This document shows, one piece after another, positions 672 through 48,933 of a stretch of DNA of 64,000 nucleotides (the first letter of the stretch is position 1; each line of letters begins with the position of its first letter). Source of the DNA: Lingula anatina (Eukaryota; Animalia; Brachiopoda); assembly GCA_051362555.1 (NCBI GenBank), contig CM120641.1, positions 3,658,001 to 3,722,000 on the forward strand, read 5' to 3'. Under the pieces are notes generated by a model. The model was not told where the DNA came from. It did no database searches and worked only from the letters and a program-made list of their open reading frames with translations. Both the position numbers and the translations under genes were made by a program.

Positions 672-857
672 GGCTATTTCTTGTTTCTTACATGTACTAA
701 AACTAAAAACTGTGTGAGAGGAGAGTGAAAAGGTGAGAACAGTGTGGGTGATTAAAAAACACGGTTCTAATTCACTTACCCTAAGGACTTTTTAAAATAC
801 TGCTTGGTGCCACGCTTGCTGCATTGGTAAATTTTTTTCTCCCTCTTTTTGTTACAG

Positions 858-2030
858 AGGTAGGCATCATTTGCGAATTAAAGAACACCACCATTGGCTG
901 CCTGCAGGAGACAGAGAGGAACAAAGTGATGAAGATCTTGTTTGCCAACTACGGCCGAACCAGCGACATCAAGTGCCGCCATCCCTACAACACCTCATCG
1001 CTGCACGAGTCTCTCAACTGCAGTGCTGCCAATTCTACCAAGATAATCCGGGATTTGTGTGAGGGGAAACGCACCTGTCATCCGGATGTCTCCAATGCCG
1101 TATTTGGTGACCCTTGTTATGGGACGTACAAGTACCTGGAGGTGGATTGGCAATGTGTGGACCCAGGTAATAATAATAATACGTTTTGGCGGGTCAGATG
1201 TCGAGGTAGTTTAATAGGGAAGTGGAGATTGGTATAAAAGTGCCCCAAACATGGCCTAAAATTGCTGCTACTGTCTCCGCAGTTTATAGGGGTCTAAGAG
1301 GCTTTTATATGTAAAGAGGAGGCTGCACAGTTATCTAACAAAGCCACTAACTTATCACTTAAAGTCATCTCATATCCAACAAAAAACATTCTAAAACACA
1401 ATGACTTGATTACATCTGGTAATAATAATGTGAAAAATATTTAAAATTTATATTCGGCAAACACCTATCTCCATTTACTTTAAATCTGTTGGATGCCCAT
1501 ATTGAATATATTTTTAATTGTTAATAACAACTGGTCGGGAATAAGGAAATGTGTTTTCATTATGTATCGGGTGGATAAATGACTAAAAAAACGCATTGAA
1601 CTTTAAATGACTGAAAAAAGCGCATTAAACTTTAAATTTGAGAATCTAAAGAGTTCTCTGTTATTCAGAATCATATACGAGGTAGTGCCTTTCGCCAAAA
1701 AATGTGTCGTTCAAAAACCAAAATAATAAATAGTTACAAAACGTATGCCGAAGCCAACTGCTTCATAGTTTCTAGAATGATATTTACGTTACATTTTTAA
1801 GAATAACATAGATAAAACACATTTTTTACGCATGTTTATATAAACACACCTCGTATTTTATAATGCAATTTTCTGTCAAAAAAATCGGAATTAGGCAGAT
1901 GCACGCACGGTAAAAATCTACAGTGTTACCGGTACGACTCAATGTTAAGACATTTGAGTAGTTAATCAACTAGGAGATCCACAAATCTTACAGCCTGTGG
2001 CGGCTGTGCACTAGTTCAGAAATTACAAAA

Positions 2031-2564: not shown

Positions 2565-3014
2565 CGCACCGACAGGAACTACGAGCGCCAAGTAAAGATT
2601 ACATAAGCTTTAGCGTGCCATAAGCACAAAAGTTCGTCTTCAGAGTATGTCAAACACATTTTATTTGTTTGTAAACAAAACAGCATTAAGCCAGATTTTG
2701 TAGTTTTATTTTAACGTACTAAAACACCATTCGCACCTTTTCAAAATATAATTGGGAAATGGAACTATTGACGTTGAAGAGATTTGCCCAAAAATATAAG
2801 AAATATATAAGTACAGGCTAATACTAGAAAACACTGAATAAAGGGATTGCAGGTCACGTGTTACAGACAATGCTTTAAGAACTGTCCGATTTTGGGCACT
2901 GAGCAATATTAAAATATGTAAACATCTCGCACTGAAATTAACCGATTAAAAAATCTGTATCTGCGTTCCAGCGCTGTATACCCTATCTACTTTTACAATG
3001 TAAAAATCTATCAC

Positions 3015-6000
3015 TTATTTTCTTATACTTGCACTTTCGCAAGAATCTTTTTTCTTGTTAATTTGAACATTTAAAAAGTTAACGGTCCCATTTTTCAGAC
3101 CGACGCAAAGTTTGCGTCCAATCACAAGCAAACAGGTGACTATGTGTTCAAAATAAAATTGGCATAGTGAATGAGATTCTTTAATGTTGTGTTTTGGCAC
3201 TAACCATAAAATTATAGATTTATCGTAGGACCCTGTGATAATATGATTGTCGCCATATGGCACTATAGCCGTCACAGCACGGGTATGAGCATATGCGTAT
3301 TGCTTACTTTGTGTTTGTTCTCCTAAGAGGTTCATGGAATCCCCACTGTTAATGTCTGCTATATTAATTGTACATTTTGGCCCCTCTGTGAAGACACGCG
3401 AGCCTGAACACGAACGCGGTCGACTCCACGCGGTGTTGTACGTCAGCATCTGCTTTGACGGTATATCCGTTGTCAAGTCGATCATCTGAGCAAAAATGTC
3501 TTTGTGGCAACACATGACGAACTTGCCGTCTGACGACACTGATATGCATCGCATGCCGTAATGTTGCTGTGTGGAAATTACCCTGACTAAATTCCCATTC
3601 ACAGTTTCGTGAACACCAATTTTGTTGTCTGATGACGCCGTAAGAAATAATGTTTGATCCGGAGTACGGCACAAGTGCTCTACACCGAATGGGGCGTGAC
3701 AGGCATTGGCACGTATTCTAGGCTTCAGTGCCTTTCCATTGTCTTTCAAGTTCCAAATACAAACTCGACCATCACTAGACCCGGTCAATAAGGTTCCATT
3801 TTGAAGAGCTAAGATACTCTTTGTGGCACTGGGGGCACTTAATTTCAAGACCAGGGCTTTAGATGTCAAGTCCCAAAGCTGAACTAAATTGTCGCCATGC
3901 ATCACAAATGCAATGAGATTCTCTGATACCGCTTTCACGCGGTCTATATGAAATGCGCCGATGTGCCATCTTGTGCGTGTCCACTGTAAACAATATGGAA
4001 ACGCTTCTCCATCTTTACCTTGTGCGTATTCTACGAAATCGCCCTCTGACGTTAACACCAACACAGATGTGGCATTTGGCAGCAATTCTATACATTTCAC
4101 TTCACCGGTAACACTTGGCAAAGTCGATAATGTTTTCCCGTGTCTCGTCACTATGGTAACACTGCCATTGTCACTTCCGCACACCAGGTGTTCTTGATCC
4201 TCTGAGATCGCGAGAGCAGTGGCGATTTCAACCTTTGGAAGGCCAGAATTTATTTTGGAATTTCTTTCGATTTCCAGTATGAGGGTTCTCAAACGGCTGT
4301 CCTCGTCAAAACCTATAATGATTTGTTTAAACTTTGGAAGGGGTACTACTGGGAAGGGCGGCATGTTTTTGATTTTGACAGTCACTATCTCATGCTGTTG
4401 TTGCTCCTGGTAATCCCTTTCATATGACAAAGTTGTAATTGCGTCGTCACATAACGCCGATATGGAGCATTCTGGCGTCACTCGCAAATGTCTTACTCCG
4501 AATTGTGATGTTCTTATCACACGCAAAATGGCTGTTTGTGTTGGCCTTTGAATATCCCACACATAAATGTCCCCGTTACAGAGTCCAACGATAAGGGGGT
4601 GGCCTTCTAAAGCCGCTAAAGTTCCTATAGCAGCTGGATGCACATATGAGAACGCTGCGTTTTGGCTTTCGTCCTCCAAGTTCCAAATGTGCAAGGTTCC
4701 AGTTTGGGATCCAGTGAAACAGCGGTTTCCATGACTTGAAACAGTTGTTATTCTGTCCCCATCGTCATGCCTCCCTATAACTTTGACGGCTGTTCCATTT
4801 GATGAATCCCATAATATCACCTGCCTGTCCCAGGAAACAGAAATGGCATATCTTTCATTAGATGCTGACGTCATTGCCGACACCGGTCCCTCGTGGTTTG
4901 GCATGTGACTTTGTGTCGAAGAATTATCTAGACTGGAAAGAGAAAAGCACGACTGTTTTACTGATTGGTCGACCGATGCCGTGTAAATAGTCATCGTGTT
5001 CTCTTGGAAGGCACATTGGATCCCCCGTACTGCAGCAGAATGGATCTGAGCCTGAAATACCAGTGAATGGTCGTCGTTCACGTCCCAAAATTTGACCCGT
5101 CCATCATCTCCACCGGACAACAATAAGGAGTGCGATTCGTAACGTGCAAGACACAAAGCAAATGTACCGCCCTCGTGCCCTTTCAAGATTCGCCGTACTT
5201 CCAACGAAGGGAAATTTAAAACACCGATTCCCGTCTTCCCGCCAACATAAAGCTGACGTTGATATCTGCTGAAAAACAAAGTATAAAGAACTCCCAACTT
5301 TGGATTACAAGATGTAACTGGGCACTCCGGTCTGTTTTTTCGCCACAAGTAGACAGTTTTATCATAAGAGCAAGAAGCAAAAAATGTCTCCTTTTCAGAT
5401 AAATTGGTAAAACATGCGCATGCGACTACATCGGTGTGGGCAGCATACGTGAACTGAACACTCCCGTCATTTAAATACCACAATTTTATAGTTTTATCTC
5501 CGGAGACTGTGAGTCCCGATTCGCCATCCGCCGATAATACTAACGAGAATATCTGCCTGTTGTGAATATTGGAGAACGTTTCACGGAGGCATTTCCCCTT
5601 TAAATCCCATAGCTTGACAACACTGTCACAAGCGGCTGTCACGACGAGGGTTTCGCTACTGTTGACACCAAAACAAGTAACCAAATCATTGTGCTTTGTG
5701 AGATCTGATCCGAGGCAAGTCTCTCCTCCTGTTATTGGATCGATGAGCCGTACAAATCCGTCCCCAGATGTCGTAACGATCGATGAATCCTTTAACACTC
5801 CTAACCCTAAAACAGCTGTGCTATTGTGTGCGCTGTACGTTTTAACAACATGCCCATAGGGTGGGGAAATACACGCACGGTCAGGTAAAAAACATGAATC
5901 GGCATCCTCAAAAAGTTGGTTTCTAACATCTTTAAGAAAATCAGAAATCCCAATTATTTCTAAATTACTAAGGGAGCCCAGGAACACGGGGCCTAGTTGC

Positions 6001-8702
6001 TTCTTATCGCGGATGATGGCTGGAGCGTGGAGAAGTAAAGCTTTGTTGATGGCATCATGCAAGGGGCTGAATTGAGGACGTTCGAAGTCAGAAAGTATTT
6101 CTGACAAAGATGTTTTATTCAATTTGGCTTGAAGCCAGCGGAATGAACACAGGAGTCCTATGTAAAATGACTCGAACTCTTCTCCCATAGCTGTGCAGTG
6201 ATGAATGAAATTGGTGTACACATATTTGTCACCTGAAAAATCCAGGTTCCACCAAGGATAACTCAGTACAATAGCTTGGTCATTCTCATAGCAGCTACTG
6301 CAACCCAATTGATCTTTGCCACTGTTTGTGTTTGATCCGCTAATCGTGGGACGATCTTTGCAGGGACTGTGCCTCTGAACTGAACGCTCCAAATCATCCT
6401 GGAACCCTGAATCCGAGCGGTCTTTCTCAGCCGAGCACCCTGCTGCCGGTTCTTCCAGCCGTAACTTTTCAATGTGCTGCAACCCGATTGTGCCTTCTGC
6501 AGCTGCGACGTATGCCGCCAGGAGGGCCGTGTGCATCCGACGGATCCCATCCGGTCCCCACAAAGTCTCAGTCTTATTCTGAATGTACTGCAGTACCAGG
6601 TCGTGTATTCGGAAATAACAGTCTCCATCTTCATCTTCAAGCTTAAATCTGAGCAGAGATTTATCTGCCAGTGTGAACAGACATTCACGGACATGTCTTG
6701 CAACTTTATCTTGCTTTTCAGCGTTGGATTTATCTTGCATGTAGCTGCATAGGATAGCTAATGTTGACGATTGAATTAAGGCATCTTTTTTGAACAACGA
6801 CACCTTAAGAAGTATTTCTTGCAGCATGCTGTACGGCTTGTTTGTATCGCCGGCGTCTCGCAAACAGGCAAAAGTTGCCTCAAAGGCGCCTACAAAAGTT
6901 TCAGGATAACTGTCTATCGGCAGACGTCTGGATTCCATCCACAATTTGTCTTTCTCTTTCAAGGATGCTGCCATGTCCCTCCACCTCTGAGAAGAAAATG
7001 GCTGCGAAACCGACGTGGCACCTTGCCTGAGCGACGAGGCAACTAAAGCAATCGCCAGAGGATATCCTCCTAGATAACTGTGTATGGCGTTGGCTTCCTT
7101 TGTTATTTTGTGGTCATTTAAGAGCTTTTCTGTCACATTTGCACATTTGAGGAACAACTGCCAAGCATTTTCAACATCTAAATGATCAAGAGTATATATT
7201 CAAACGTTAAGCATGTTGATAACAGCTCGGTCGCGAGTTGTTATAAGCAGCAAACAGTCTTTAGAAATTGCAGTAAAAGCGCTGGCATCATCTGGATTCC
7301 AAACGTCGTCTAGCACAAATAATATTTTCTCGTGCATCGTGAACTGTATTAACCAACTTCGGGCAGAAATACGATCGGCAAAATCTTCCTGGGATTCACT
7401 ACCTTGTAGGTGCCGTCTTACACTACTGATGATTTTCACAACGTCCGGTGCTTTGCCGCAATGAATCCAATAAATATGTAGAAACATCCTTCTGTAAATG
7501 TATCTGCAGATGAGTGTCGCCAGCGAAGTCTTCCCAATGCCGGGAGCACCCGAAATACCAAACATATTACTGCCCTCCTCGGGGACTTGGCCCATGAAGG
7601 ATTCGGCAATGAAGACGACATCGTCTGTTCTTCCCAATAAGTTGTGAGGGTTGTGGACCTGGATACCGTGAACGAGTGGTTCTGAAAGAGATAAGATTAA
7701 AATGCCGCTGAAATGTGCACCCTAAGACCCCATGCAAAGAGAAGGTGGCTTGTCTTCACGTCCCACGTATTCCAATTTATCAAAAAAAGCTTGCGGCATA
7801 ATGTAGTGTATTGCAGTTAAGATCAACATTTCCAAGGCAACCTAAATAGCCAGATTAAAACTAAAAGTAATATAACTCTGTGCTCCTTTAAATCGATATG
7901 TAAAAAATTTACTTACTTGTACCCCATTCTAGTTCTGAAACAAAATGAAAATAACATTTTATTTATACAATATTTACAACTGTTTATCTATGGACAGCCC
8001 ACACCTGATACTGATGGGGACAACTCTCTACCCAAAATACACTATAATATCAGAAATTGGTTTCAAATAGATCCTTAAATATAGTGTGAGGCAGCGGCTA
8101 AGATTAACTATATTTCCAGGCATAAATTTAGCTTGTATGCATTTGTATGACTTTCTTATATTATAATATCTGTAACTTAAATGGAATGCTCTGTAAGCTC
8201 TATTACATAAACCAACCTTTGCTGAGTTGCTTTGATAGCTTCTTCAAAAATTCTGGATCGTCATGGTGTATTACATCTCTTTTGTGTGTATATTTATAAG
8301 GTACGATCGTGTCTTGCAGCAATACAACAACAACAGATCCACGGCGAGGTCGTTCGGTATCATTTTCCAGAGAGAGTGCTAAGTTTGCCGCGTACAAACA
8401 TGAAGGATCGCTCAAAAAATCTGAAGTTATCACTAAAACAGTTTTGTCGCAATTTCGTATGAAATCGATCAATTCGTCTATTATAATAGCGCCAGGTGGA
8501 ATGTTAGTTTCATCCAAGAAATGAAATTCTGCATTGGACTGCGTTTTCAAACTGTCCACCAGTGCCGCCCTCCAATGTTTCGCTCTTGGGTTTAGTTCGA
8601 TGCCCACAAGGAACACTTTTTGGGGCATATCATCATAGGAATGCGTGAAGATTATACGAGTGCCTGTACCTTTGTTGAGCAATTGCCTTCCAGACGCAAG
8701 CC
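3015..8702 (-). pseudogene. TIR-NB-ARC-WD40 STAND gene, copy A, with premature TGA at 7200-7202; pseudogene or truncated ~303-aa TIR-NBD protein
   Basis: Exons 8702-8217 (TIR), 7934-7917 (18-nt microexon) and 7681-3015, all GT-AG and phase 1. ORFs 7200..7637 and 3015..7157 are in the same frame and split only by GTT-TGA, where copy B has GTT-CGA (a7202 vs g21570). Confidence 0.85.
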
Positions 8703-11059: not shown

Positions 11060-12563
11060 AAATGTTAACAATTTCTCAGCTTAACAGAGGCTTAGGCCCT
11101 AATATTTGTCAAAATTTCAAATGTTATCTCTTGTGCAGGAATATCAGCCCGGGGTTTAAATGTCGCTGGAAACTTGCCACGCCTACCTAAATAGCCTACT
11201 GCAGTCGTTTTCAGTGTCTATAAAAATATCCCAATATACGGGCTACCCCCCCCCCCCCCCCCTTTCGATTTCTGAAAAAATATCACACCAAGGTCTCCTT
11301 TTTAAATAAGAATTTTGACTAGCTGAATCATAGTTCTAAACCGTACTAAATGGCACCGTTTGCCCTCTAAAATACCAATTTTTTCGAGGCCGGGGGGGGG
11401 GGGGGGGGGGGGGGGGGTGAGTATGGGCTTTGCATCTGCAGACCCCTCCCCCCTTCAAATGATCCTGAGTCCGCCCCTGCAATATGTGGGCTGCTGGAGA
11501 CGGCAGAAGGACGCTGATATTAGGGACGAGTTTCCAGACCATCCAGAGAACTCTCAAACTGGTGAAAACATATTTGTTTACTTCAAATCGTCCAGAATAT
11601 ACTGACGGCTGGCCACAATCCCCCGCCATGCCTTCCCAGATCTACAAGGTAGGCATGTAAGGTGGTGGGGGGGGGGGGAACAAATAGGGATTGTATATGT
11701 ATATGTATATATACATGTATATAGTGGGGGCATTTACTAGCCAACTATCCTGAATACTTTCCTAAATATTACATTTGGTGGAAGATCCATTTTCGGACAG
11801 GTAAGGTAGCGCATTTAAATTTTATTTGCCGGAATTGCATGGTATTTGAGTCTTTTTACTCTCAATAGACAAAAAGTGCCAGCGAAATGTTGTTTGTCAC
11901 TCTCCAGTTACTGCTGTGAATGTAGAAAGCAATGTGGCCTGAGCTTACACATCAAGAGCACGGTGAAAACATATATCTAGGAGGGAGCGTGTGGCTTTCA
12001 ACAGAACTGATGCTGGGTATATCGTCTATAGAGTTGAGAAAATGGTTAAGACAGTAGAATCCCCAGCCGAAAGCTCCCACCCATAACACTAATGAGCAGG
12101 AGCAAAACAAAGAGTGGTCTTTGAAAACTTTGATACGAAACATTTGAATCGTAATAAAATTCGAGCCATATAGCTTATACTGTAAACATTGCCCCCCCCT
12201 TTTACGCCGATGCCACGAAATTTATATTTATAAACTTTTTTTCTTTTGTAAATACTCCTTCTCTTAGGTAACTTAATTCAACAACCCTTAATGTGTCACT
12301 TGTCAGATCTCAAGCAGAAAGGCGCGCGAAGCAGTCTATTCTTCTTCTTTAGAGGTTGTGCCCATAGGCCGTCTCAGGAAAGAACTTAAACCCGAAAATT
12401 TGTCTAATCCTAAGACGTCTAACTTAAGTCTATTTTGACATGGATAAATCAGTAGTACATTTATTAAACTAATATTGAGAATTTGCACGGTTTTAATCAG
12501 AAAGGCATGGTTATATCGGTGTATTTTTTTATTTTATTCAGGTGGACTACATGTACTGTGGAT

Positions 12564-13072
12564 TTATCTTGACCCAAAGTAGACCGCTTGAGCGTGGTCT
12601 GGGCGTCCGGCGTGGTCTGGCTTGCCTTGTGCTTTCTCTGGTTTTCCTCCAAACTGGTCACCAGAGCCGGGCTCGTTAGTTGGGAGTGGACAATGTGCCC
12701 TTTGCAAGGTGCGGTCCTTGCAGTACGCTTGGAACAGGTAGCATCTGGAAGAAAAAGATATAGTGAGTGCACTGTTATCATGCCTTGTCCAGCTACTAAT
12801 CTATTAGACGAAGCCAATAAGGACTTACACGAAAACAATGCAGTTGATATAGCTCTCCATCTTCTTAATTAATCAAGATGGCGTAGGGGGAAGGGGTTGA
12901 GGTAGGGAAGGGGTAACAATTATGGAACAACATCTCTGATGAACAGGTTTCGTGCCTTTTTACTGTCAAAGAAAACTGACTGTTCCATAAACATCTTACC
13001 AAAACTAGAACCACGACATCATTTTATCTAAAAAACTTTTAATTTGACTTGCATTTGGATTAGGAAAGTTGT

Positions 13073-13115
<43 letters not shown>

Positions 13116-14045
13116 AGCCTCTTTTACAGAGACAAAGAAATGCAAATTAAATAAATGTATGGTGTGCATGATACTATGTCTCACCTGTTGGGGTACTCAT
13201 TGCCCTTGTCGTCACAGACAACGTGCTCCTTCAAGAGAGAGCAGTCCACTGTTTCTGCCTGCTTGCACTCCTCGTCCACGCGGCTGCTGGGGCGGTCACG
13301 GGTGACCATGCGGCACTTCTTGGGGGTCAGCTCAGGGTCGGCGCAGCGGGCTTTTTCGAACTCGCATCTGTAAAGGGATACTGATTGCTGTTTTCATTCG
13401 TTATATGAAGCATTTTGGATCACTTAATCTTATGTCTTGTGTGCGTTCATAACGGACGTTAGTCAATCAAGAATTAAAGACAGTGGTGATGGAAGTTGCG
13501 CTACATTTCTGCCATGGAAAAAATTAATGAATTTTGGACTTGTAATTTACAAGAAGACACACAGTAACTTGGATAATTGTGATGAATTAAAAAATTAAAA
13601 ATAAACAGCGGATTGTTAGACAGATATATCAGTTGATGGATTGATGAATTAATAAAAAGTGATAGCCATCTCACGCACCTGTTGGAGTACTTATTGCCCT
13701 TGCTGTCACAGTAGGTTCCCTTGTGGTTCCAGCGTGCGATAACAGAGCAGTCCATGTCCTTGACCTCCTCGCACTTGTCGTCTGGCTTTTCCGGCTCACC
13801 AGAACCTGCCAAGGTCTCGACATCGGGCTTCATTTTGTCAGGGCGGTCGCAACGCGTCAGCTTCAGATCTGGGTTGTCGCAGTGCGCCTTGAAGAACTCG
13901 CACCTGAACAAAAAAAGAGAAAATCATGTTTCAATCTTTAAAAACCTAGCTCAGCTCACACTTGTGAAGTTCCGACCTCGTGAGAGCGTTGAATTATGCA
14001 TATGCATCTGATGGGTGTTACATCTATCTGTGAGGCCAATGGCTG

Positions 14046-14087
<42 letters not shown>

Positions 14088-14541
14088 TATCCAGCCAATT
14101 TGCATTTGTGAACTTTTGGGTTAAGAAAAAAATGTACGTTATTTTTAATGAATCATACTAGGCTGAATAAAAAACAAAATAATTACCAGACTTATATTTC
14201 TGATAAATTTAACCCTGGCAAGGACGTACATGATTCTTTGCCAAAGGGGAGTAACGTGCAGTCTGCTGGAGAGGATGCTTTGCCTAAACATTTTAAAATC
14301 GCTGGCTGATGACCACAAAACGGTAAAAAGTCTTACCTGTTGGCGTAGGTGTTCCCTTGGACGTCACACAACTTCCTGACGTGGTTCCACGGCGCCATGA
14401 CTTGGGCGCAGTCCAGGGCTTTTAGTTGCTTGCATTTGTCATCGTCCTTATCATCCCCAGAACTCTGAGGCTCGATGCGCCAATTGGGGTCGGCGGCGAC
14501 AGCTAAAAGAATGGGAAAATTGACCAAACAAATTTAAAATG

Positions 14542-14574
<33 letters not shown>

Positions 14575-14893
14575 GCTTTAAAAATGAACAAGTGAGATAC
14601 TCTATTGGATACAGGGAACTGCCTTTTTTCCATCACAAGGAGACTTTTTGCATGACAAGCGACATAACAACAGCAGACATTTTATGTTCATGCGTGTGTA
14701 CGTGAGGGAGGCTGCCATGACGAAAAAAGGCAACTAATCCAATTTGTTGAAACTAAATAGAACGTAACGTATAACCTGCTTTGATTAATTTTCCCAAAAG
14801 CTCACATCAATTCTGCATCGAAAAAAAGGTAAGATACTGGCCTAATTTAAGCAACTTACCGACAGCAAAAAGGCAGATGGCCAAGATCTTCAT
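12564..14893 (-). CDS. Secreted protein with three atypical Kazal-like domains, copy A (repeat tail deleted)
   Basis: Exons 14893-14860 (signal peptide MKILAICLFAV), 14502-14337, 13903-13679, 13367-13185 and 12744-12564, all GT-AG and frame-compatible. Three six-Cys domains with C-D-x2-G-N-x-Y-x-N-R-C-x6-C. The protein ends ...PDHAQAVYFGSR*. Confidence 0.8.
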
Positions 14894-17382: not shown

Positions 17383-20300
17383 TTATTTTCTTATACTGGC
17401 ACTTTCACAAGAAACTTTTTTCTTGTTAATTTGAACATTTAAAAAGTTAACGGTCCCATTTTTCAGACCGACGCAAAGTTTGCGTCCAATCACAAGCAAA
17501 CAGATGACTATGTGTTCAAAATAAAATTGGCATAGTGAATGAGATTCTTTAATGTTGTGTTTTGGCACTAACCATAAAATTATAGATTTATCGTAGGACC
17601 CTGTGATAATATGATTGTCGCCATATGGCACTATAGCCGTCACAGCACGGGTATGAGCATATGCGTATTGCTTACTTTGTGTTTGTTCTCCTAAAAGGTT
17701 CATGGAATCCCCACTGTTAATGTCTGCTATATTAATTGTACATTTTGGCCCCTCTGTGAAGACACGCGAGCCTGAACACGAACGCGGTCGACTCCACGCG
17801 GTGTTGTACGTCAGCATCTGCTTTGACGGTATATCCGTTGTCAAGTCGATCATCTGAGCAAAAATGTCTTTGTGGCAACACATGACGAACTTGCCGTCTG
17901 ACGACACTGATATGCATCGCATGCCGTAATGTTGCTGTGTGGAAATTACCCTGACTAAATTCCCATTCACAGTTTCGTGAACACCAATTTTGTTGTCTGA
18001 TGACGCCGTAAGAAATAATGTTTGATCCGGAGTACAGCACAAGTGCTCTACACCGAATGGGGCGTGACAGGCATTGGCACGTATTCTAGGCTTCAGTGCC
18101 TTTCCATTGTCTTTCAAGTTCCAAATACAAACTCGACCATCACTAGACCCGGTCAATAAGGTTCCATTTTGAAGAGCTAAGATACTCTTTGTGGCACTGG
18201 GGGCACTTAATTTCAAGACCAGGGCTTTAGATGTCAAGTCCCAAAGCTGAACTAAATTGTCGCCATGCATCACAAATGCAATGAGATTCTCTGATACCGC
18301 TTTCACGCGGTCTATATGAAATGCGCCGATGTGCCATCTTGTGCGTGTCCACTGTAAACAATATGGAAACGCTTCTCCATCTTTACCTTGTGCGTATTCT
18401 ACGAAATCGCCCTCTGACGTTAACACCAACACAGATGTGGCATTTGGCAGCAATTCTATACATTTCACTTCACCGGTAACACTTGGCAAAGTCGATAATG
18501 TTTTCCCGTGTCTCGTCACTATGGTAACACTGCCATTGTCACTTCCGCACACCAGGTGTTCTTGATCCTCTGAGATCGCGAGAGCAGTGGCGATTTCAAC
18601 CTTTGGAAGGCCAGAATTTATTTTGGAATTTCTTTCGATTTCCAGTATGAGGGTTCTCAAACGGCTGTCCTCGTCAAAACCTATAATGATTTGTTTAAAC
18701 TTTGGAAGGGGTACTACTGGGAAGGGCGGCATGTTTTTGATTTTGACAGTCACTATCTCATGCTGTTGTTGCTCCTGGCAATCCCTTTCATATGACAAAG
18801 TTGTAATTGCGTCGTCACATAACGCCGATATGGAGCATTCTGGCGTCACTCGCAAATGTCTTACTCCGAATTGTGATGTTCTTATCACACGCAAAATGGC
18901 TGTTTGTGTTGGCCTTTGAATATCCCACACATAAATGTCCCCGTTACAGAGTCCAACGATAAGGGGGTGGCCTTCTAAAGCCGCTAAAGTTCCGATAGCA
19001 GCTGGATGCACATATGAGAACGCTGCGTTTTGGCTTTCGTCCTCCAAGTTCCAAATGTGCAAGGTTCCAGTTTGGGATCCAGTGAAACAGCGGTTTCCAT
19101 GACTTGAAACAGTTGTTATTCTGTCCCCATCGTCATGCCTCCCTATAACTTTGACGGCTGTTCCATTTGATGAATCCCATAATATCACCTGCCTGTCCCA
19201 GGAAACAGAAATGGCATATCTTTCATTAGATGCTGACGTCATTGCCGACACCGGTCCCTCGTGGTTTGGCATGTGACTTTGTGTCGAAGAATTATCTAGA
19301 CTGGAAAGAGAAAAGCACGACTGTTTTACTGATTGGTCGACCGATGCCGTGTAAATAGTCATCGTGTTCTCTTGGAAGGCACATTGGATCCCCCGTACTG
19401 CAGCAGAATGGATCTGAGCCTGAAATACCAGTGAATGGTCGTCGTTCACGTCCCAAAATTTGACCCATCCATCATCTCCACCGGACAACAATAAGGAGTG
19501 CGATTCGTAACGTGCAAGACACAAAGCAAATGTACCGCCCTCGTGCCCTTTCAAGATTCGCCGTACTTCCAACGAAGGGAAATTTAAAACACCGATTCCC
19601 GTCTTCCCGCCAACATAAAGCTGACGTTGATATCTGCTGAAAAATAAAGTATAAAGAACTCCCAACTTTGGATTACAAGATGTAACTGGGCACTCCGGTC
19701 TGTTTTTTCGCCACAAGTAGACAGTTTTATCATAAGAGCAAGAAGCAAAAAATGTCTCCTTTTCAGATAAATTGGTAAAACATGCGCATGCGACTACATC
19801 GGTGTGGGCAGCATACGTGAACTGAACACTCCCGTCATTTAAATACCACAATTTTATAGTTTTATCTCCGGAGACTGTGAGTCCCGATTCGCCATCCGCC
19901 GATAATACTAACGAGAATATCTGCCTGTTGTGAATATTGGAGAACGTTTCACGGAGGCATTTCCCCTTTAAATCCCATAGCTTGACAACACTGTCACAAG
20001 CGGCTGTCACGACGAGGGTTTCGCTACTGTTGACACCAAAACAAGTAACCAAATCATTGTGCTTTGTGAGATCTGATCCGAGGCAAGTCTCTCCTCCTGT
20101 TATTGGATCGATGAGCCGTACAAATCCGTCCCCAGATGTCGTAACGATCGATGAATCCTTTAACACTCCTAACCCTAAAACAGCTGTGCCATTGTGTGCG
20201 CTGTACGTTTTAACAACATGCCCATAGGGTGTGGAAATACACGCACGGTCAGGTAAAAAACATGAATCGGCATCCTCAAAAAGTTGGTTTCTAACATCTT

Positions 20301-23070
20301 TAAGAAAATCAGAAATCCCAATTATTTCTAAATTACTAAGGGAGCCCAGGAACACGGGGCCTAGTTGCTTCTTATCGCGGATGATGGCTGGAGCGTGGAG
20401 AAGTAAAGCTTTGTTGATGGCATCATGCAAGGGGCTGAATTGAGGACGTTCGAAGTCAGAAAGTATTTCTGACAAAGATGTTTTATTCAATTTGGCTTGA
20501 AGCCAGCGGAATGAACACAGGAGTCCTATGTAAAATGACTCGAACTCTTCTCCCATAGCTGTGCAGTGATGAATGAAATTGGTGTACACATATTTGTCAC
20601 CTGAAAAATCCAGGTTCCACCAAGGATAACTCAGTACAATAGCTTGGTCATTCTCATAGCAGCTACTGCAACCCAATTGATCTTTGCCACTGTTTGTGTT
20701 TGATCCGCTAATCGTGGGACGATCTTTGCAGGGACTGTGCCTCTGAACTGAACGCTCCAAATCATCCTGGAACCCTGAATCCGAGCGGTCTTTCTCAGCC
20801 GAGCACCCTGCTGCCGGTTCTTCCAGCCGTAACTTTTCAATGTGCTGCAACCCGATTGTGCCTTCTGCAGCTGCGACGTATGCCGCCAGGAGGGCCGTGT
20901 GCATCCGACGGATCCCATCCGGTCCCCACAAAGTCTCAGTCTTATTCTGAATGTACTGCAGTACCAGGTCGTGTATTCGGAAATAACAGTCTCCATCTTC
21001 ATCTTCAAGCTTAAATCTGAGCAGAGATTTATCTGCCAGTGTGAACAGACATTCACGGACATGTCTTGCAACTTTATCTTGCTTTTCAGCGTTGGATTTA
21101 TCTTGCATGTAGCTGCATAGGATAGCTAATGTTGACGATTGAATTAAGGCATCTTTTTTGAACAACGACACCTTAAGAAGTATTTCTTGCAGCATGCTGT
21201 ACGGCTTGTTTGTATCGCCGGCGTCTCGCAAACAGGCAAAAGTTGCCTCAAAGGCGCCTACAAAAGTTTCAGGATAACTGTCTATCGGCAGACGTCTGGA
21301 TTCCATCCACAATTTGTCTTTCTCTTTCAAGGATGCTGCCATGTCCCTCCACCTCTGAGAAGAAAATGGCTGCGAAACCGACGTGGCACCTTGCCTGAGC
21401 GACGAGGCAACTAAAGCAATCGCCAGAGGATATCCTCCTAGATAACTGTGTATGGCGTTGGCTTCCTTTGTTATTTTGTGGTCATTTAAGAGCTTTTCTG
21501 TCACATTTGCACATTTGAGGAACAACTGCCAAGCATTTTCAACATCTAAATGATCAAGAGTATATATTCGAACGTTAAGCATGTTGATAACAGCTCGGTC
21601 GCGAGTTGTTATAAGCAGCAAACAGTCTTTAGAAATTGCAGTAAAAACGCTGGCATCATCTGGATTCCAAACGTCGTCTAGCACAAATAATATTTTCTCG
21701 TGCATCGTGAACTGTATTAACCAACTTCGGGCAGAAATACGATCGGCAAAATCTTCCTGGGATTCACTACCTTGTAGGTGCCGTCTTACACTACTGATGA
21801 TTTTCACAACGTCCGGTGCTTTGCCGCAATGAATCCAATAAATATGTAGAAACATCCTTCTGTAAATGTATCTGCAGATGAGTGTCGCCAGCGAAGTCTT
21901 CCCAATGCCGGGAGCACCCGAAATACCAAACATATTACTGCCCTCCTCGGGGACTTGGCCCATGAAGGATTCGGCAATGAAGACGACATCGTCTGTTCTT
22001 CCCAATAAGTTGTGAGGGTTGTGGACCTGGATACCGTGAACGAGTGGTTCTGAAAGAGATAAGATTAAAATGCCGCTGAAATGTGCACCCTAAGACCCCA
22101 TGCAAAGAGAAGGTGGCTTGTCTTCACGTCCCACGTATTCCAATTTATCAAAAAAAGTTTGCGGCATAATGTAGTGTATTGCAGTTAAGATCAACATTTC
22201 CAAGGCAACCTAAATAGCCAGATTAAAACTAAAAGTAATATAACTCTGTGCTCCTTTAAATCGATATGTAAAAAATTTACTTACTTGTACCCCATTCTAG
22301 TTCTGAAACAAAATGAAAATAACATTTTATTTATACAATATTTACAACTGTTTATCTATGGACAGCCCACACCTGATACTGATGGGGACAACTCTCTACC
22401 CAACATACACCATAATATCAGAAATTTGTTTCAAAAAGATCCTTAAATATAGTGTGAGGCAGCGGCTAAGATTAACTATATTTCCAGGCATAAATTTAGC
22501 TTGTATGCATTTGTATGACTTTCTTAAATTATAATATCTGTAACTTAAATGGAATGCTCTGTAAGCTCTATTACATAAACCAACCTTTGCTGAGTTGCTT
22601 TGATAGCTTCTTCAAAAATTCTGGATCGTCATGGTGTATTACATCTCTTTTGTGTGTATATTTATAAGGTACGATCGTGTCTTGCAGCAATACAACAACA
22701 ACAGATCCACGGCGAGGTCGTTCGGTATCATTTTCCAGAGAGAGTGCTAAGTTTGCCGCGTACAAACATGAAGGATCGCTCAAAAAATCTGAAGTTATCA
22801 CTAAAACAGTTTTGTCGCAATTTCGTATGAAATCGATCAATTCGTCTATTATAATAGCGCCAGGTGGAATGTTAGTTTCATCCAAGAAATGAAATTCTTC
22901 ATTGGACTGCGTTTTCAAACTGTCCACCAGTGCCGCCCTCCAATGTTTCGCTCTTGGGTTTAGTTCGATGCCCACAAGGAACACTTTTTGGGGCATATCA
23001 TCATAGGAATGCGTGAAGATTATACGAGTGCCTGTACCTTTGTTGAGCAATTGCCTTCCAGACGCAAGCC
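17383..23070 (-). CDS. Intact TIR-NB-ARC-WD40 (Apaf-1-like STAND) protein, ~1698 aa if started at ATG 22996
   Basis: Exons 23070-22585 (TIR: KVFLV...NIPPG...IRNCDKTVLVITSDFL), 22302-22285 and 22049-17383. NB-ARC motifs: Walker A GAPGIGKT, Walker B LFVLDDVW, sensor-1 LLITTRD, GYPLAI, MHD-like IHD. An Apaf-1-like helical domain (FIHH...LLCSFRWLQAKL) precedes about 21 WD40 repeats. The true start codon is uncertain. Confidence 0.9.
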
Positions 23071-24743
23071 CTATAATATAAGAAGTGTTAAAAAGGTGTA
23101 CTAATTCATAGGTAACTAAAAGCAAGGGTTAAGTTGTTTACCTTTCACAAGTTAAATGTTTTTAAGTCCCAGCCCAATAAATCTACAACGTTAATTTTAG
23201 TTGGAAGAGCGGGAATGATTAGAAGGTTCACGTTTAAAAGGCCATCCTCTTACACCAATTTGATGGCCCTACTACATGTAGTAGCATTATTTAAGTGATT
23301 CCGCCGGCCTTAGTAAATGCAACATGTAGGTTGCAGCAGACAGTGGACTCGCCTTGCCTGGAATTCCTCTCCCCTTTATTTCATTAATTACACTGGTTGT
23401 AGGATCAATACAGGCGCTTGTTTGACTAGTCTCTTTTCAACCTACGGATTATTTTATCTCACTCATGATATGAGCATTATATTATGTCAGTGAAATACGT
23501 ATATGGTGTTCTTTGGCCATACAGAATATATACCAAACCTTAAATTCCTTTTGGATGGGAACCCCATCTCCATGTGCGTTCCACAAGAGTAGACCATGTT
23601 AAAGGCTTGAAAAAAGCCAAAACTAACACTCAGAAACGCAGGGTACCAATCTGCTCTCTAGACATTTGTGATTCATTGCGTTGTATGATATCATCCCCTT
23701 AATTAAGTCTTAAGCAGGGGGCTTGATAAGACAAACTACAGGAAGCAAACCTTTGTTAATCAATTACCTGTTTTATTTTCAAGAGTTTTAACTCGTTATT
23801 TAAAAATAGTTAACTCAGTAAATATTGACCGAGAACACATTTCCTCAGCCTGACCCTTTCAACCAAACAACTTTCTGGATTTCAAGGGACAATAACGCTT
23901 TATATCGGAGGGAAGGATGCCATAATACGGATTTCATGTGTCCCACACTTGCCTATGGTTAATGAATCCGTTCCGACATTCAGAGTAAGGTGATGTTTTT
24001 TTTTCTTAAGTGTGTTTTTGTAATAATCTCTGAAGAGATTATTACGGAGGTTAAAGTCATCTATGAACGTCCACGTGCTCTGATGGCATGGACAGATGTC
24101 AGAATGATTGCGAAAACCGCCGTTTTGGTGGTACATGTAAAATGGTATTGCTTATATGTGTTGTTTACAATGTATTTATTGAAAAATTTTGAAACTCATA
24201 TGAAGAATTGTTATCCCTTTAAATTAAAAACGGATTACTTAAAAGTAAAATCATTCTGGTTTTAGATTAAAACGCACGTCATCTCTTAGATAACGTTTTA
24301 ATATTCTGAATTAATTCTTGCTGTGTGGTATGGCTATCTTATCAAAGGTAAATATACATGAACAATATATACAACAATAACGCGGCGATACATTCTAAAT
24401 GTATTCATACCACCGCACTTTGTGGGGCACTTAGTAGTCCCAATATATAAATATCCTCACACAGTAAAGTAGCAATGGAACCCACATCAGTTTCACTGAA
24501 ATTTGTCAGCTTTATAAGTGTGATCGCAGTATTCTCTATATTTGATCTATAGTTTATGTTTGATGATGCGTTGACAGTATATTGTTGCTCATTCATTCAT
24601 TATGACACAGGAAACCACTGGAAGGGTAAAGGTCGTGGCAAACCAGCTTAAGAACAACAGTCGCGACATTCACATAGAGCACACGAGAACGGGAAAGGCC
24701 GTGCAGATTAAACAGTGGCCCACAGCGTGTCAACAATGTATTA

Positions 24744-25068
24744 CTGTTAATAATATAATCGAAAAGCAAGGGGATAGGATCAAGGGCGGTTTTAGCCCGT
24801 CTTCTGGGTCTTCTGGGTTTCCAAGTTTAAGGAATCACGAGGATTATGACTTAAAATGAAAAAAATCCCCCAAACACATCCGAGCATAAAATCAGTTAGA
24901 GTCCTCAAAGTCGATGCAAAGTGGTCTTTATCTACTTGTAAATTCACCGTATATTCCACCAGTAAATTCAGCTTTGAATCTTTACCAATTAATTTATTTC
25001 TATAATGTAGTGACAAGCATAGGAGTAGTGAACGAGACAGCTGAAAATATCAGGAGTCCATGATCTAG

Positions 25069-25118
<50 letters not shown>

Positions 25119-25403
25119 CGTGCCAATCTTTTCGATAAAAAAAACACACAACATCCCCCAGTATTGACTTACTTGGTAGTAGCTTGTTCAATGACTGCAA
25201 AGCGGTGTGTTGATCATGTGCTCTTTGCGATAGTGAAATTGGATGACTGCTGCTTGGAAATTCCCAATGACGTCATCGTGCCTTACATATGTTACTTTAG
25301 TCGAATTTTGCACTGTTGTGAATCAAGTAATGATCTAGGTCATTAATCAAAATAAGACTTGTTAATAATTAGTTTATATATTTCGTAAATCGCATATTTT
25401 AAT

Positions 25404-25467
<64 letters not shown>

Positions 25468-26532
25468 GAGAGAGATAAAAACAATTTCTCAGCTTTATGG
25501 GGGCTTTATTTTTGTCAAATGTTATCTCTTGTGCAGGAATTGCACCCCGAGTTTCAAGTGCCACTGGAAACTTTCCACGCCTACCTGAATACGACAGTCA
25601 TTTTCAGTATCTGGGTTTAAAAATATCCCAATATACGGGCTACCTCCCCCCCCTTTCCATTTAAAAAAAATCACACCAACGTCTCCTCTTCAAATCAGAA
25701 TTTTGACCAGCTGAAAGCTGAATCATGGTTCCAAACCGTATCAAATGGCACCGTTCGCCCTCTTAAATATCAAAAATTTCCGGGGCCCTTCAGCCGGCAC
25801 CAAACCCCACGCCAAGGGGGGGGAGGGGGAGGGGGGGGCTGTCATTCCTAAAAACCGAATCCCCTTAAAATAATCCTGGATCCGTCCCTGCTACTGGAAA
25901 GGGCAGAAGGATGCTGATTTTAGGGGGAGTTTTCAGACCATCCAGAGAGCTCTAAAGCTGGTGAAAACCCCATTTGTTTACTTCAAATCTTCCAGGATAT
26001 ACTGACGGCTAGCGACAATCTCCCGCCATGCCTTCACAAATCAGCTAGGTAGGCATTGGAGGGGGGTAAAAAATAGGGATAGTATATATGGGGGGGGGGG
26101 ATTCATTCTCCAACTATCCTGAACATTTCCTGAATATTACATATGGTGGAAAAATCCATTTTTGGACAGGTAAGGTGGCGCATTCAAATTTTATTTGCTG
26201 TTAATAATATAATCGAAAAGCAAGGGGATAGGATCAAGGGCGGTTTTAGCCCGTCTTCTGGGTCTTCCGGGTTTCCAAGTTTAAGGAATCACGAGGATTA
26301 TGATTTTAAATGAATAAAAAAATCCCCCAAACACATCCGCGCATAAAATCAGTTAGATCCCTCAAAGTCGATGCAAAGTGGTCTTTATCTACTTGTAAAT
26401 TCACCGTATATTCCACCAATAAATTCAGCTTTGAATCTTTACCAATTAATTTATTTCTATAATGTACTGACACGCATAAGAGTAGTGAACGAGACAGCTG
26501 AAAATATCAGGAGTCCATGATCTAGAAGTGTA

Positions 26533-26577
<45 letters not shown>

Positions 26578-26860
26578 CGTGCCAATCTTTTCGATAAAAA
26601 ACACACAACATCCCCCAGTATTGACTTACTTGGTAGAAGCTTGTTCAATGACTGCAAAGCGGTGTGTTGATCATGTGCTCTTTGCGATAGTGAAACTGGA
26701 TGACTGCTGAGTGGAAATTCCCAATGACGTCATCGTGCCTTACATATGTTATTTTAGTCGAATTTTGCACTGTTGTGAATCAAGTAATGATCTAGGTCAT
26801 TAATCAAAATAAGACTTGTTAATAATTAGTTTATATATTTCGTAAATCGCATATTTTAAT

Positions 26861-26935
<75 letters not shown>

Positions 26936-27273
26936 AAACAATTTCTCAGCTTTATGGGGGCTTTATTTTTGTCAAATGTTATCTCTTGTGCAGGAATTGC
27001 ACCCCAAGTTTCAAGTGCCACTGGAAACTTGCCACGCCTACCTGAATACGACAGTCATTTTCAGTATCTGGGTTTAAAAATATCCCAATATACGGGCTAC
27101 CTCCCCCCCTTTCCATTTTAAAAAAAAATCACACCAACGTCTCCTCTTCAAATCAGAATTTTGACCAGCTGAAAGCTGAATCATGGTTCCAAACCGTATC
27201 AAATGGCACCGTTCGCCCTTTAAAATACCAAAAATTTCCGGGGCCTTTCAGCCGGCACCAAACCCCACGCCAA

Positions 27274-27308
<35 letters not shown>

Positions 27309-28016
27309 CTGCCACTCCTAAAAACCGAATCCCCTTAAAATAATCCTGGATCCGTCCCTGCTACTGGAAAGGGCAGAAGGATGCTGATTTTAGGGGAGTT
27401 TTCAGACCATCCAGAGAGCTCTAAAGCTGGTGAAAACCCCATTTGTTTACTTCAAATCTTCCAGGATATACTGACGGCTAGCGACAATCTCCCGCCATGC
27501 CTTCACAAATCAGCTAGGTAGGCATTGGAGGGGGGTAACAAATAGGGATAGTATATATGGGGGGGGGGGGGGGAGGGAGGGGGGATTCATTCTCCAACTA
27601 TCCTGAACATTTCCTGAATATTACATATGGTGGAAAAATCCATTTTTGGACAGGTAAGGTGGCGCATTCAAATTTTATTTGCTGTTAATAATATAATCGA
27701 AAAGCAAGGGGATAGGATCAAGGGCGGTTTTAGCCCGTCTTCTGGGTCTTCCGGGTTTCCAAGTTTAAGGAATCACGAGGATTATGATTTTAAATGAATA
27801 AAAAAATCCCCCAAACACATCCGCGCATAAAATCAGTTAGATCCCTCAAAGTCGATGCAAAGTGGTCTTTATCTACTTGTAAATTCACCGTATATTCCAC
27901 CAATAAATTCAGCTTTGAATCTTTACCAATTAATTTATTTCTATAATGTACTGACACGCATAAGAGTAGTGAACGAGACAGCTGAAAATATCAGGAGTCC
28001 ATGATCTAGAAGTGTA

Positions 28017-28055
<39 letters not shown>

Positions 28056-28339
28056 CGTGCCAATCTTTTCGATAAAAAACACACAACATCCCCCAGTATT
28101 GACTTACTTGGTAGAAGCTTGTTCAATGACTGCAAAGCGGTGTGTTGATCATGTGCTCTTTGCGATAGTGAAACTGGATGACTGCTGAGTGGAAATTCCC
28201 AATGACGTCATCGTGCCTTACATATGTTATTTTAGTCGAATTTTGCACTGTTGTGAATCAAGTAATGATCTAGGTCATTAATCAAAATAAGACTTGTTAA
28301 TAATTAGTTTATATATTTCGTAAATCGCATATTTTAATA

Positions 28340-28407
<68 letters not shown>

Positions 28408-29136
28408 AAACAATTTCTCAGCTTTATGGGGGCTTTATTTTTGTCAAATGTTATCTCTTGTGCAGGAATTGCACCCCAAGTTTCAAGTGCCACTGGAAAC
28501 TTGCCACGCCTACCTGAATACGACAGTCATTTTCAGTACCTGGGTTTAAAAATATCCCAATATACGGGCTACCTCCCCCCCTTTCCATTTTAAAAAAAAA
28601 TCACACCAACGTCTCCTCTTCAAATCAGAATTTTGACCAGCTGAAAGCTGAATCATGGTTCCAAACCGTATCAAATGGCACCGTTCGCCCTTTAAAATAC
28701 CAAAAACTTCCGGGGCCTTTCAGCCGGCACCAAACCCCACGCCAAGGGGGGGGGGGGGGGGGGCTGCCACTCCTAAAAACCGAATCCCCTTAAAATAATC
28801 CTGGATCCGTCCCTGCTACTGGAAAGGGCAGAAGGATGCTGATTTTAGGGGAGTTTTCAGACCATCCAGAGAGCTCTAAAGCTGGTGAAAACCCCATTTG
28901 TTTACTTCAAATCTTCCAGGATATACTGACGGCTAGCGACAATCTCCCGCCATGCCTTCACAGATCAGCTAGGTAGGCATTGGAGGGGGGTAAAAAATAG
29001 GGATAGTATATATGGGGGGGGGGGGGGAGGGAGGGGGGATTCATTCTCCAACTAGCCTGAACATTTCCTGAATATTACATATGGTGGAAAAATCCATTTT
29101 TGGACAGGTAAGGTGGCGCATTCAAATTTTATTTGC
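24744..29136. repeat. Three head-to-tail copies of a ~1.46-kb unit that is single-copy in A (~10389-11830)
   Basis: ctgttaataatataatcgaaaagcaagggg starts at 24744, 26198 and 27682. Each unit carries (GT)n(GA)n tracts, G-runs and the kB+CRE motif. Confidence 0.92.
25256..28210. promoter_or_regulatory. Three kB+CRE composite motifs (25256-25275, 26713-26732, 28191-28210)
   Basis: ggaaattcccaatgacgtca is identical in all three units and in copy A, while flanking sequence differs between A and B. Confidence 0.5.
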
Positions 29137-44002: not shown

Positions 44003-44276
44003 TTCCAGGTCTCCGACTTAATAGCACACTGGACACGCACAATACATAACTACGGAAGGAACGAAAAAATGGCGACAAGATGGGGGAAAGGGGATTCCCT
44101 ACATGTGACGTCACGGTCCAGGAAAACCCAAATTTATCAAACCAACCTAGACAGATATACTCTATGGTAAAAAAACCCCTCACTTTTAAAGCAGAACGTA
44201 TTTTTAAAAAGCAAAACTGAACTTAAAAAGTTCGGACATCTCCGCAGCATGAAACTAGGTTAAAGGTCAAGTTAAA
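44003..44276. promoter_or_regulatory. Compact bidirectional promoter of FADD and LRPAP1 with kB site and CRE
   Basis: The divergent ATGs are separated by 274 bp. GGGGATTCCC at 44090-44099 and TGACGTCA at 44106-44113. Confidence 0.7.
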
Positions 44277-48415: not shown

Positions 48416-48933
48416 CCTTAATACATACCAGCTGCCAATGATTTGATCTTTTTCTTATTTTAGATATATTAATACATCAAGTTAGAACCAAATATTTGTA
48501 TTATGGTAATAATTAATCAAGGAAGTGAATTCAATCGAGAAAAAACACAAACATTAAAAAGATATATTAGAATATTTGACACCATTTCTGATTTTTTTAC
48601 ACTTTTCTATTTACATTATGTGACAAAAATATTTGACATACAGCTGATTTCCCAAATAGATCTGACAAAAGGAATGCTGCTTCATTGTTAAAGAAGTTAA
48701 CTTCTGCAATTCCAAGGTGCTTTCTTAGTTTGTTAATGAGGTCTTTTTGTAGTTTTTCTACAGTACAATATTTACTGGACCCATTTTTTGCATTATTGTT
48801 TGAAAGCACACATTTTAAAAATGTGCATTTCTTCCAAGTACAATTTTATTCTTGTTACTCACATCTTTTAGAATAAAGAAAGTTATCCTTGGACTTGTTT
48901 GCTCAATAAAACATTTAATCTGGTCTCCATTAA

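What the first reader, a model, noticed from the sequence alone, without database searches (positions are those of the whole stretch)
17383..23070. Animal TIR-NB-ARC-WD40 receptor: an Apaf-1-like scaffold with a TIR effector and apparently three beta-propellers
Seen: splicing three phase-1 exons joins a TIR domain to an NB-ARC with all canonical motifs, an Apaf-1-like helical domain and about 940 aa of WD40 sequence. I count 21 blades, with linkers after blades 7 and 14. Known: Apaf-1 has a CARD and two propellers (~15 blades), plant TNLs are TIR-NB-ARC-LRR, and animal NLRs mostly use NACHT. Non-CARD NB-ARC proteins have been noted in invertebrate genomes but are largely uncharacterised. Inference: this is a cytosolic sensor that oligomerises like an apoptosome but signals through TIR-TIR assembly rather than caspase-9 recruitment.
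Basis: partly seen in the sequence, partly recalled or inferred. Interest (0 to 1): 0.85.

Follow-up and report, generated by a model that had tools for sequence, protein, structure and literature searches.

The report
Brachiopod TIR-headed three-propeller Apaf-1-like gene
A lamp-shell (brachiopod) gene has exons that join in frame into a protein with an immune TIR head, an Apaf-1-type ATP switch and a predicted three-propeller sensor; it likely works as an intracellular alarm, and the same layout was already reported in amphioxus, although this copy likely got its TIR head separately.

Summary
Three exons with GT-AG ends join in frame (1,698 aa from the first ATG). They encode a TIR, an NB-ARC with all motifs and a weak Apaf-1 helical domain. 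The AlphaFold strands read as 21 WD40 blades in three propellers. The animal is Lingula anatina; a RefSeq model uses the same junctions. RNA is scarce: no joint was listed, but binned depth fits one fragment crossing both introns.

The layout is not new: TIR-[NB-ARC]-WD40 proteins were named in amphioxus in 2008 (PMC2575513).

What is added: the gene belongs to an old animal subfamily with a ~1,000-aa WD40 tail whose head varies (DED in Nematostella, Death in hemichordates, TIR in amphioxus). Lingula groups with the Death-headed forms, not the amphioxus TIR forms (AU p = 2e-5), and its TIR lacks the catalytic glutamate they keep. It likely signals as a TIR scaffold; this is untested. A tandem twin carries a stop codon and a RefSeq version is frameshifted. 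The scan earlier noted this layout in prokaryotes.

The parts
22585..23070 (-). TIR exon, phase-1 at both ends; likely start ATG at 22996-22994
   Evidence: splice signals and frame; Pfam TIR_2 at about 22948-22667; X6 depth in bin 22988-23243 equals two reads over the 83 exon bases, which fits the acceptor at 23070 (inferred from binned depth)
22285..22302 (-). 18-nt linker micro-exon
   Evidence: AG and GTAAGT ends; used in RefSeq model XP_013392449; X5 bin depth equals 2 x 18 letters (inferred)
17383..22049 (-). single 4.67-kb exon: NB-ARC, helical/winged-helix domains and WD40 sensor
   Evidence: open frame of 1,568 codons; sense-strand RNA reads in X4, X5, X6
21382..21948 (-). NB-ARC domain; Walker A 21918-21892, Walker B 21690-21667, sensor-1 21618-21598, GxP 21438-21418
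   Evidence: Pfam PF00931 E=9e-24; motif coordinates
20965..20982 (-). IHD (MHD-type) motif of the winged-helix domain
   Evidence: the histidine is invariant in 62 of 62 aligned proteins
20446..20601 (-). Apaf-1-type helical domain 2 (weak match), preceded by a polar insert of about 70 aa
   Evidence: APAF1_C E=4e-4, under cut-off; relatives pass the cut-off (P0017, P0023); alignment
19306..20244 (-). predicted beta-propeller 1 (blades 1-7)
   Evidence: Z 38.3, rmsd 1.8, 292 aligned to LIS1
18388..19251 (-). predicted beta-propeller 2 (blades 8-14)
   Evidence: strand pattern of the model; not overlaid separately
17431..18330 (-). predicted beta-propeller 3 (blades 15-21), ending in the subfamily's conserved last blade
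   Evidence: end motif shared with hemichordate, Nematostella and amphioxus relatives; not overlaid separately
25171..25172 (-). candidate donor (GTAAGT) of an upstream, probably non-coding exon inside a 1.48-kb repeat unit
   Evidence: RefSeq first exon matches copy 1 at 10956-10834 (41 of 41 aa) but is interrupted by a stop here; not tested by RNA
3015..8702 (-). tandem copy 1 of the gene, offset 14,368 bases, with a stop codon in the NB-ARC at 7202-7200
   Evidence: 14 codon differences in the large exon (8 missense, 1 nonsense, 5 silent)

Best explanation
This Lingula gene encodes a TIR / NB-ARC / 21-blade WD40 protein that likely acts as an autoinhibited cytosolic sensor, which would switch on by nucleotide exchange, oligomerise like Apaf-1 and cluster its probably non-enzymatic TIR heads to recruit TIR adaptors. 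Shown: exon structure, domain content, intact NB-ARC motifs, loss of the TIR catalytic glutamate, and kinship with Death-headed hemichordate proteins. Predicted: three propellers. Inferred from Apaf-1 and TLR/MAL/MyD88 biology (recalled knowledge): ligand binding by the propellers, ADP-to-ATP exchange, ring formation and adaptor recruitment towards NF-kB-type output. The ligand is not identified. The TIR exon, symmetric in phase 1, was likely shuffled onto an old three-propeller scaffold whose head differs between lineages.
For: Frame and splice sites; the same junctions in RefSeq XP_013392449; depth arithmetic in X5 of 93-96, 35-37 and 73-75 letters in the three exon-holding bins, as expected from one overlapping 102-nt pair. 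A profile of 62 relatives matches the WD40-free Apaf-1 structure 1z6t over residues 99-558 in one stretch, E=9e-92. The TIR's best solved matches are TLR2 (E=7e-4) and MAL/TIRAP, with Ala where TLR2 has Glu; 8 of 9 other TIRs aligned have Glu in that column. Animal TIR catalysis depended on this Glu in all cases tested in bioRxiv 10.64898/2026.04.20.719644 (passages). Trees: 16 of 16 sampled family rows form one side of a branch (SH-aLRT 96, quick tree); Lingula sits with hemichordate Death-headed proteins at 100/100 with or without the other long branch and shares a 3-residue insert in blade 1 with them.
Against: No function is measured for any member. Expression is very low: 0, 13, 17 and 3 reads in four runs, and no intron joint reached the tool's 3-read limit in any of the 8 runs laid, of 9 listed. 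Reads cannot be tied to this copy: at 18994 and 19645 they show copy-1 letters (3 of 3, 6 of 6). X6 also has antisense depth within the large exon. Copy 1 has a stop, RefSeq XP_013392449 ends in a frameshift within the WD40 region, and XP_013392484 begins after the site of that stop. Lingula's branch is the longest in the family (1.5). PMC10959488 proposes that CARD-less Apaf-1-like proteins are under relaxed constraint and likely do not oligomerise (passage).
Confidence: 0.55

Rival explanations
1. A decaying or dispensable paralogue: the scaffold is old, but in Lingula it drifts, with broken and intact alleles segregating and little current function.
For: Of four versions seen, one has a stop, one a frameshift, and one model starts after the stop site. 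Longest branch in the family. Very low read counts. Copies differ by 8 missense and 1 nonsense against 5 silent changes.
Against: This copy keeps a 4.67-kb open exon, every NB-ARC motif and the splice sites, and folds as propellers at only about 25% identity to relatives, which needs long purifying selection. Low basal expression and broken copies are usual for immune receptors (recalled).
Confidence: 0.2
2. A replacement apoptosome: in a lineage reported to lack Apaf-1, the ring recruits TIR-bearing caspases or adaptors and triggers cell death instead of transcription.
For: APAF-1 was not detected in L. anatina (PMC11463336, passages). Relatives carry Death or DED heads, so the scaffold is wired to death-fold signalling elsewhere. 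An unchecked scan note reports a TIR-Roc-COR-caspase in this genome (e1-10589268). PMC2575513 suggests such proteins link immunity and apoptosis.
Against: No partner was tested. That paper defined APAF-1 by CARD plus NB-ARC and proposes CRADD as the activator. The neighbouring FADD-like gene has no TIR in the two exons scanned and proximity alone shows nothing.
Confidence: 0.15
3. A resistosome-like enzyme: oligomerisation switches on NAD+ cleavage by the TIR, as in plant TNLs and as predicted for the bacterial TIR / NB-ARC / WD40 proteins.
For: Both amphioxus relatives keep the Glu, and many animal TIRs are catalytic.
Against: Lingula has Ala at the catalytic position in two independent alignments, with no nearby Glu in that helix.
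Confidence: 0.07
4. A recent horizontal transfer of a bacterial TIR / NB-ARC / WD40 gene, suggested by the intronless 4.7-kb exon.
For: Most of the 150 best phmmer hits look prokaryotic, many with the same domain order.
Against: The 11 best non-self hits include hemichordate and Nematostella proteins, colinear over the whole length. The family forms one side of a branch apart from 33 prokaryote-like rows and from 6 in the careful tree (100/100). The TIR is closest to TLR2 and MAL among solved structures.
Confidence: 0.03

Closest known systems
Amphioxus TIR-[NB-ARC]-WD40s (Zhang et al. 2008, PMC2575513; here XP_078689363, XP_078596445, XP_035677772)
   Same: Same domain order, similar length (1,650-1,667 aa) and ~1,000-aa WD40 tail; same animal subfamily in the trees. 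That these records are the proteins meant in the paper is my inference.
   Different: Separate branch (AU test rejects a Lingula + amphioxus clade, p=2.4e-5); TIRs only 20-22% identical; amphioxus keeps the catalytic Glu, Lingula does not.
Hemichordate Death / NB-ARC / WD40 proteins (Glandiceps XP_078001525, XP_078001528; Ptychodera XP_070569057; Saccoglossus XP_006814872) and Nematostella DED-headed XP_032223290
   Same: Closest named relatives (E down to 1e-51), colinear over the whole scaffold, shared inserts.
   Different: Head is a Death domain (E 3e-6 to 0.02; 1 of 4 above the Pfam cut-off) or DED (E=4e-16), not TIR. Automatically named only.
Apaf-1 (PDB 1z6t, 3sfz, 5juy)
   Same: Best natural PDB match of the family profiles; NB-ARC through helical domain 2 in one stretch; top ESM Atlas cluster, 0.97, tied with a cyanobacterial cluster.
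   Different: No CARD; 21 blades against about 15 (recalled); not placed in a tree with it; cytochrome c binding untested.
Prokaryotic TIR / AP-ATPase (NB-ARC) / WD40 STAND proteins
   Same: Same domain order and similar last blade.
   Different: WD40 tail median 598 aa, with 2 of 98 measurable non-family hits at 850 aa or more; separate side of the tree; most aligned TIRs keep the Glu.
Plant TIR-NB-ARC-LRR receptors (RPP1, ROQ1)
   Same: TIR joined to NB-ARC; plant NB-ARCs are the best single-sequence PDB hits.
   Different: WD40 not LRR sensor; no catalytic Glu; plant rows lie apart in the tree.

Membership tests
Apaf-1 proper | N-terminal CARD | tested here: not met
   head is TIR; no open upstream coding exon found for this copy
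Apaf-1 proper | NB-ARC followed by winged-helix and helical domain 2 | tested here: met
   (weak)
Apaf-1 proper | two propellers of about 15 blades | tested here: not met
   21 blades read from the model
Apaf-1 proper | orthology in an NB-ARC tree | not tested
   no search returned an Apaf-1 sequence as a usable record, so none is in the trees
Apaf-1 proper | cytochrome c-triggered heptamer that recruits caspase-9 | not testable with these tools
   needs biochemistry
CARD-less Apaf-1-like proteins (PMC2246300, PMC10959488) | Apaf-1-type NB-ARC with a head other than CARD | tested here: met
CARD-less Apaf-1-like proteins (PMC2246300, PMC10959488) | falls in the published subfamilies | not tested
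   figures are not held and the supplementary sequence lists were not read
Amphioxus TIR-[NB-ARC]-WD40s | domain order TIR, NB-ARC, WD40 | tested here: met
Amphioxus TIR-[NB-ARC]-WD40s | one clade with the amphioxus TIR proteins | tested here: not met
   AU p=2.4e-5 under LG+G4, 18 rows, long Lingula branch
Plant TNL | LRR sensor | tested here: not met
   WD40 to the C-terminus
Plant TNL | TIR catalytic glutamate | tested here: not met
   Ala at that position
Prokaryotic TIR / AP-ATPase / WD40 | nests among prokaryotic sequences | tested here: not met
   the prokaryote label is from record names for a few rows and by eye for the rest

The most novel reading that the evidence does not exclude
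An ancient, overlooked animal subfamily of three-propeller Apaf-1-like sensors, present from cnidarians to chordates, swaps its output head (DED, Death, enzymatic TIR, scaffold TIR) by exon shuffling. TIR was gained twice, and in Lingula, which lacks canonical Apaf-1, the protein forms a TIR-headed apoptosome that feeds TIR adaptors or TIR-caspases directly.
Probability: 0.25. Interest if true: 0.75.

Novelty: new member of a known kind. Interest (0 to 1): 0.45.

Why it matters
It extends an architecture noted in amphioxus gene models to a protostome reported to have lost Apaf-1, and it outlines a subfamily with one sensor scaffold and at least three kinds of output head. That gives a natural swap series for asking how an apoptosome-type ring is rewired from death-fold to TIR output, and whether amphioxus forms are animal counterparts of plant TIR resistosomes while the Lingula form is a scaffold. 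The architecture itself is not a surprise to a specialist, and nothing about function is shown.

Tried and rejected
Whole-genome access: none held for this window, so copy number and other TIR or Apaf-1-like genes of this assembly were not searched. Single-sequence AlphaFold of the WD40 region failed (pLDDT 34) and was not used. Foldseek and the wide VIA search listed multi-propeller and single-propeller proteins but no full three-propeller overlay; the tool warns that other parts were barely tested. Complex prediction of two NB-ARC copies with ATP gave no answer (score 0.00, alignment not used). The word-indexed search with the family profile added no animal members, and the TIR search found only the RefSeq twin. 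The careful mixture-model tree of 56 rows did not finish in two runs, so one search is the quick tree; one plant-like row (P0034, short match) was dropped before it. Trees used 18 and 17 chosen rows of about 200 fetched proteins, under LG+G4. Literature searches listed no paper on this Lingula gene or on a three-propeller Apaf-1-like subfamily; the library lacks most subscription papers, including a survey of Lingula immune genes that I recall (Gerdol et al. 2018) and did not see. Most X8 and X9 reads, and the joints at 23.9-24.2 kb, come from an unrelated repeat and were set aside.
Full report
Observation. The minus strand holds a 1,568-codon open frame at 22089-17383 and a TIR-coding frame at 23128-22571. 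Splice signals give exons 23070-22585, 22302-22285 and 22049-17383. Joined, they read 1,722 codons without a stop, 1,698 from the ATG at 22996; leaving out the micro-exon also keeps the frame. Pfam finds TIR_2, NB-ARC and WD40 above their cut-offs and a weak APAF1_C match under its cut-off. Walker A, Walker B, sensor-1, GxP and IHD are intact.

Sensor. AlphaFold2 with 18 aligned rows gave pLDDT 78.6 and pTM 0.66 for the last 962 residues. Its 82 strands group, by eye, into 21 blades with poorly predicted linkers after blades 7 and 14. The first seven blades overlay single WD40 propellers (LIS1, Z 38.3, rmsd 1.8, 292 residues). Propellers 2 and 3 rest on the strand pattern alone.

Organism and transcripts. 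The nearest records are Lingula anatina RefSeq models: XP_013392449 (96% identical, same two junctions, frameshifted within the WD40 region) and XP_013392484 (begins inside the NB-ARC region). Neither is identical to a window copy. Eight of nine listed RNA runs were laid. At 95% likeness four runs gave 0, 13, 17 and 3 reads. At 90% four others gave 88-205, most in X8 and X9 from an unrelated repeat. No intron joint reached the 3-read listing limit. Binned depth is still informative. In X5 the three bins that hold the exon ends contain 93-96, 35-37 and 73-75 letters, which is what one fully overlapping pair covering 47 + 18 + 37 bases would give. In X6 the bin over the TIR acceptor holds 165-168 letters, twice the 83 exon bases there. 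This is inference from one or two fragments, not a listed joint. Reads show copy-1 letters at two sites, so they cannot be tied to this copy.

Duplication. A second copy lies 14,368 bases away, inside a larger duplicated block. Its large exon differs at 14 codons, one a stop in the NB-ARC. Whether this is a true tandem copy or an uncollapsed haplotype was not settled. The RefSeq first exon matches upstream of copy 1 but is interrupted upstream of this copy, so it is probably non-coding here.

Family. A full HMMER search of 1.84 billion representatives put hemichordate, Nematostella and unnamed ENA proteins first (E 1e-51 to 1e-27), colinear with the Lingula scaffold at 24-27% identity. Their heads are Death (hemichordates; weak to moderate matches) or DED (Nematostella), and two amphioxus proteins lower in the list have TIR heads. 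Nine of 13 family hits have tails of 894-1,027 aa after the helical domain and four are truncated, against a median of 598 aa in 98 measurable of 135 other hits. The family is one side of a branch against prokaryote-like and plant rows (quick tree, 100/100). Lingula joins the hemichordate Death-headed proteins at 100/100, also without the other long branch, with shared inserts. A Lingula + amphioxus clade is rejected (AU p=2.4e-5). The three subclades are unresolved, so two TIR gains and one ancestral TIR replaced twice both remain possible. The phase-1 symmetry of the TIR exon and the 20-22% TIR identity favour separate gains. No Apaf-1 sequence was available for the trees. Family profiles match Apaf-1 best among natural PDB proteins.

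TIR. The closest solved TIRs are TLR2 and MAL/TIRAP. The BB-loop Pro-Gly is kept and the catalytic Glu is replaced by Ala; both amphioxus TIRs keep it. A 2026 preprint found that activity of animal TIRs depended on this residue. A scaffold role is therefore more likely than NAD+ cleavage.

Mechanism. Best reading (0.55): an autoinhibited sensor whose propellers bind a trigger, whose NB-ARC exchanges nucleotide and oligomerises, and whose clustered TIRs recruit TIR adaptors. All these steps are inferred from Apaf-1 and TLR biology. Rivals: a drifting paralogue (0.2), given broken versions, a long branch and scant RNA; a replacement apoptosome wired to caspases (0.15); an enzyme (0.07); recent bacterial transfer (0.03).

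Literature, with what I saw. PMC2575513 (passages and section 9) names TIR-[NB-ARC]-WD40s in amphioxus and suggests an immunity-apoptosis link; that section lists no cDNA for them. PMC2246300 (passages) reports Death, DED and TIR heads on Apaf-1 homologues. PMC10959488 (passages) separates Apaf-1 from CARD-less Apaf-1-like genes. [quoted passage not shown] PMC6321704, PMC11747288 and PMC8195603 (passages) add context only. bioRxiv 10.64898/2026.04.20.719644 was seen as passages. No supplements were read; those of the 2007 and 2008 papers and the preprint's TIR tables may list this gene or its relatives. Six searches listed no paper on this gene or on the three-propeller tail.

Verdict. Real gene, correctly read. 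A new protostome member of a kind named in 2008 and not characterised in the papers I read, with a likely separate TIR gain and a non-catalytic head. Interest 0.45.

Noticed in passing
window 42607-44017 (-): FADD-like gene: DED exon (E=4e-22) and Death exon (E=1e-19), about 20 kb from the receptor gene.
   Followed up: partly
window 785-1237 (+) and about 2870-3140: SUEL lectin exon. Plus-strand RNA in X6, with loose ends matching copy 1's left flank, overlaps the 3' end of the receptor gene in antisense at depth about 20; it may be this lectin gene's 3' UTR.
   Followed up: partly
window 30246-33000 and 12497-14657 (-): Duplicated cysteine-rich multi-exon gene upstream of each copy; the second ends in a long tandem 28-aa repeat (GKPDHAGRPDH type) that the first lacks. 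No Pfam match for the exon scanned.
   Followed up: no
window 24741-29136: Three tandem units of about 1.48 kb, each holding a relative of the RefSeq first exon and its donor; possibly multiplied promoters or 5' exons.
   Followed up: partly
window 23940-24222: Interspersed, transcribed repeat with inverted structure; also at 48930-49184.
   Followed up: no
window 45410-45754 (+) and 61857-62189 (-): Exons matching alpha-2-macroglobulin RAP (LRPAP1-like) and 2-oxoglutarate dehydrogenase.
   Followed up: no
P0102, P0133, P0207: Amphioxus TIR / NB-ARC / long-WD40 proteins keep the TIR catalytic Glu but have altered IHD and, in P0133, sensor-1 motifs; candidates for enzymatic animal TIR resistosomes.
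   Followed up: no
P0112: An Anaerolineales trypsin-like / NB-ARC / WD40 protein also has a ~1,000-aa WD40 tail but groups with prokaryotes.
   Followed up: partly
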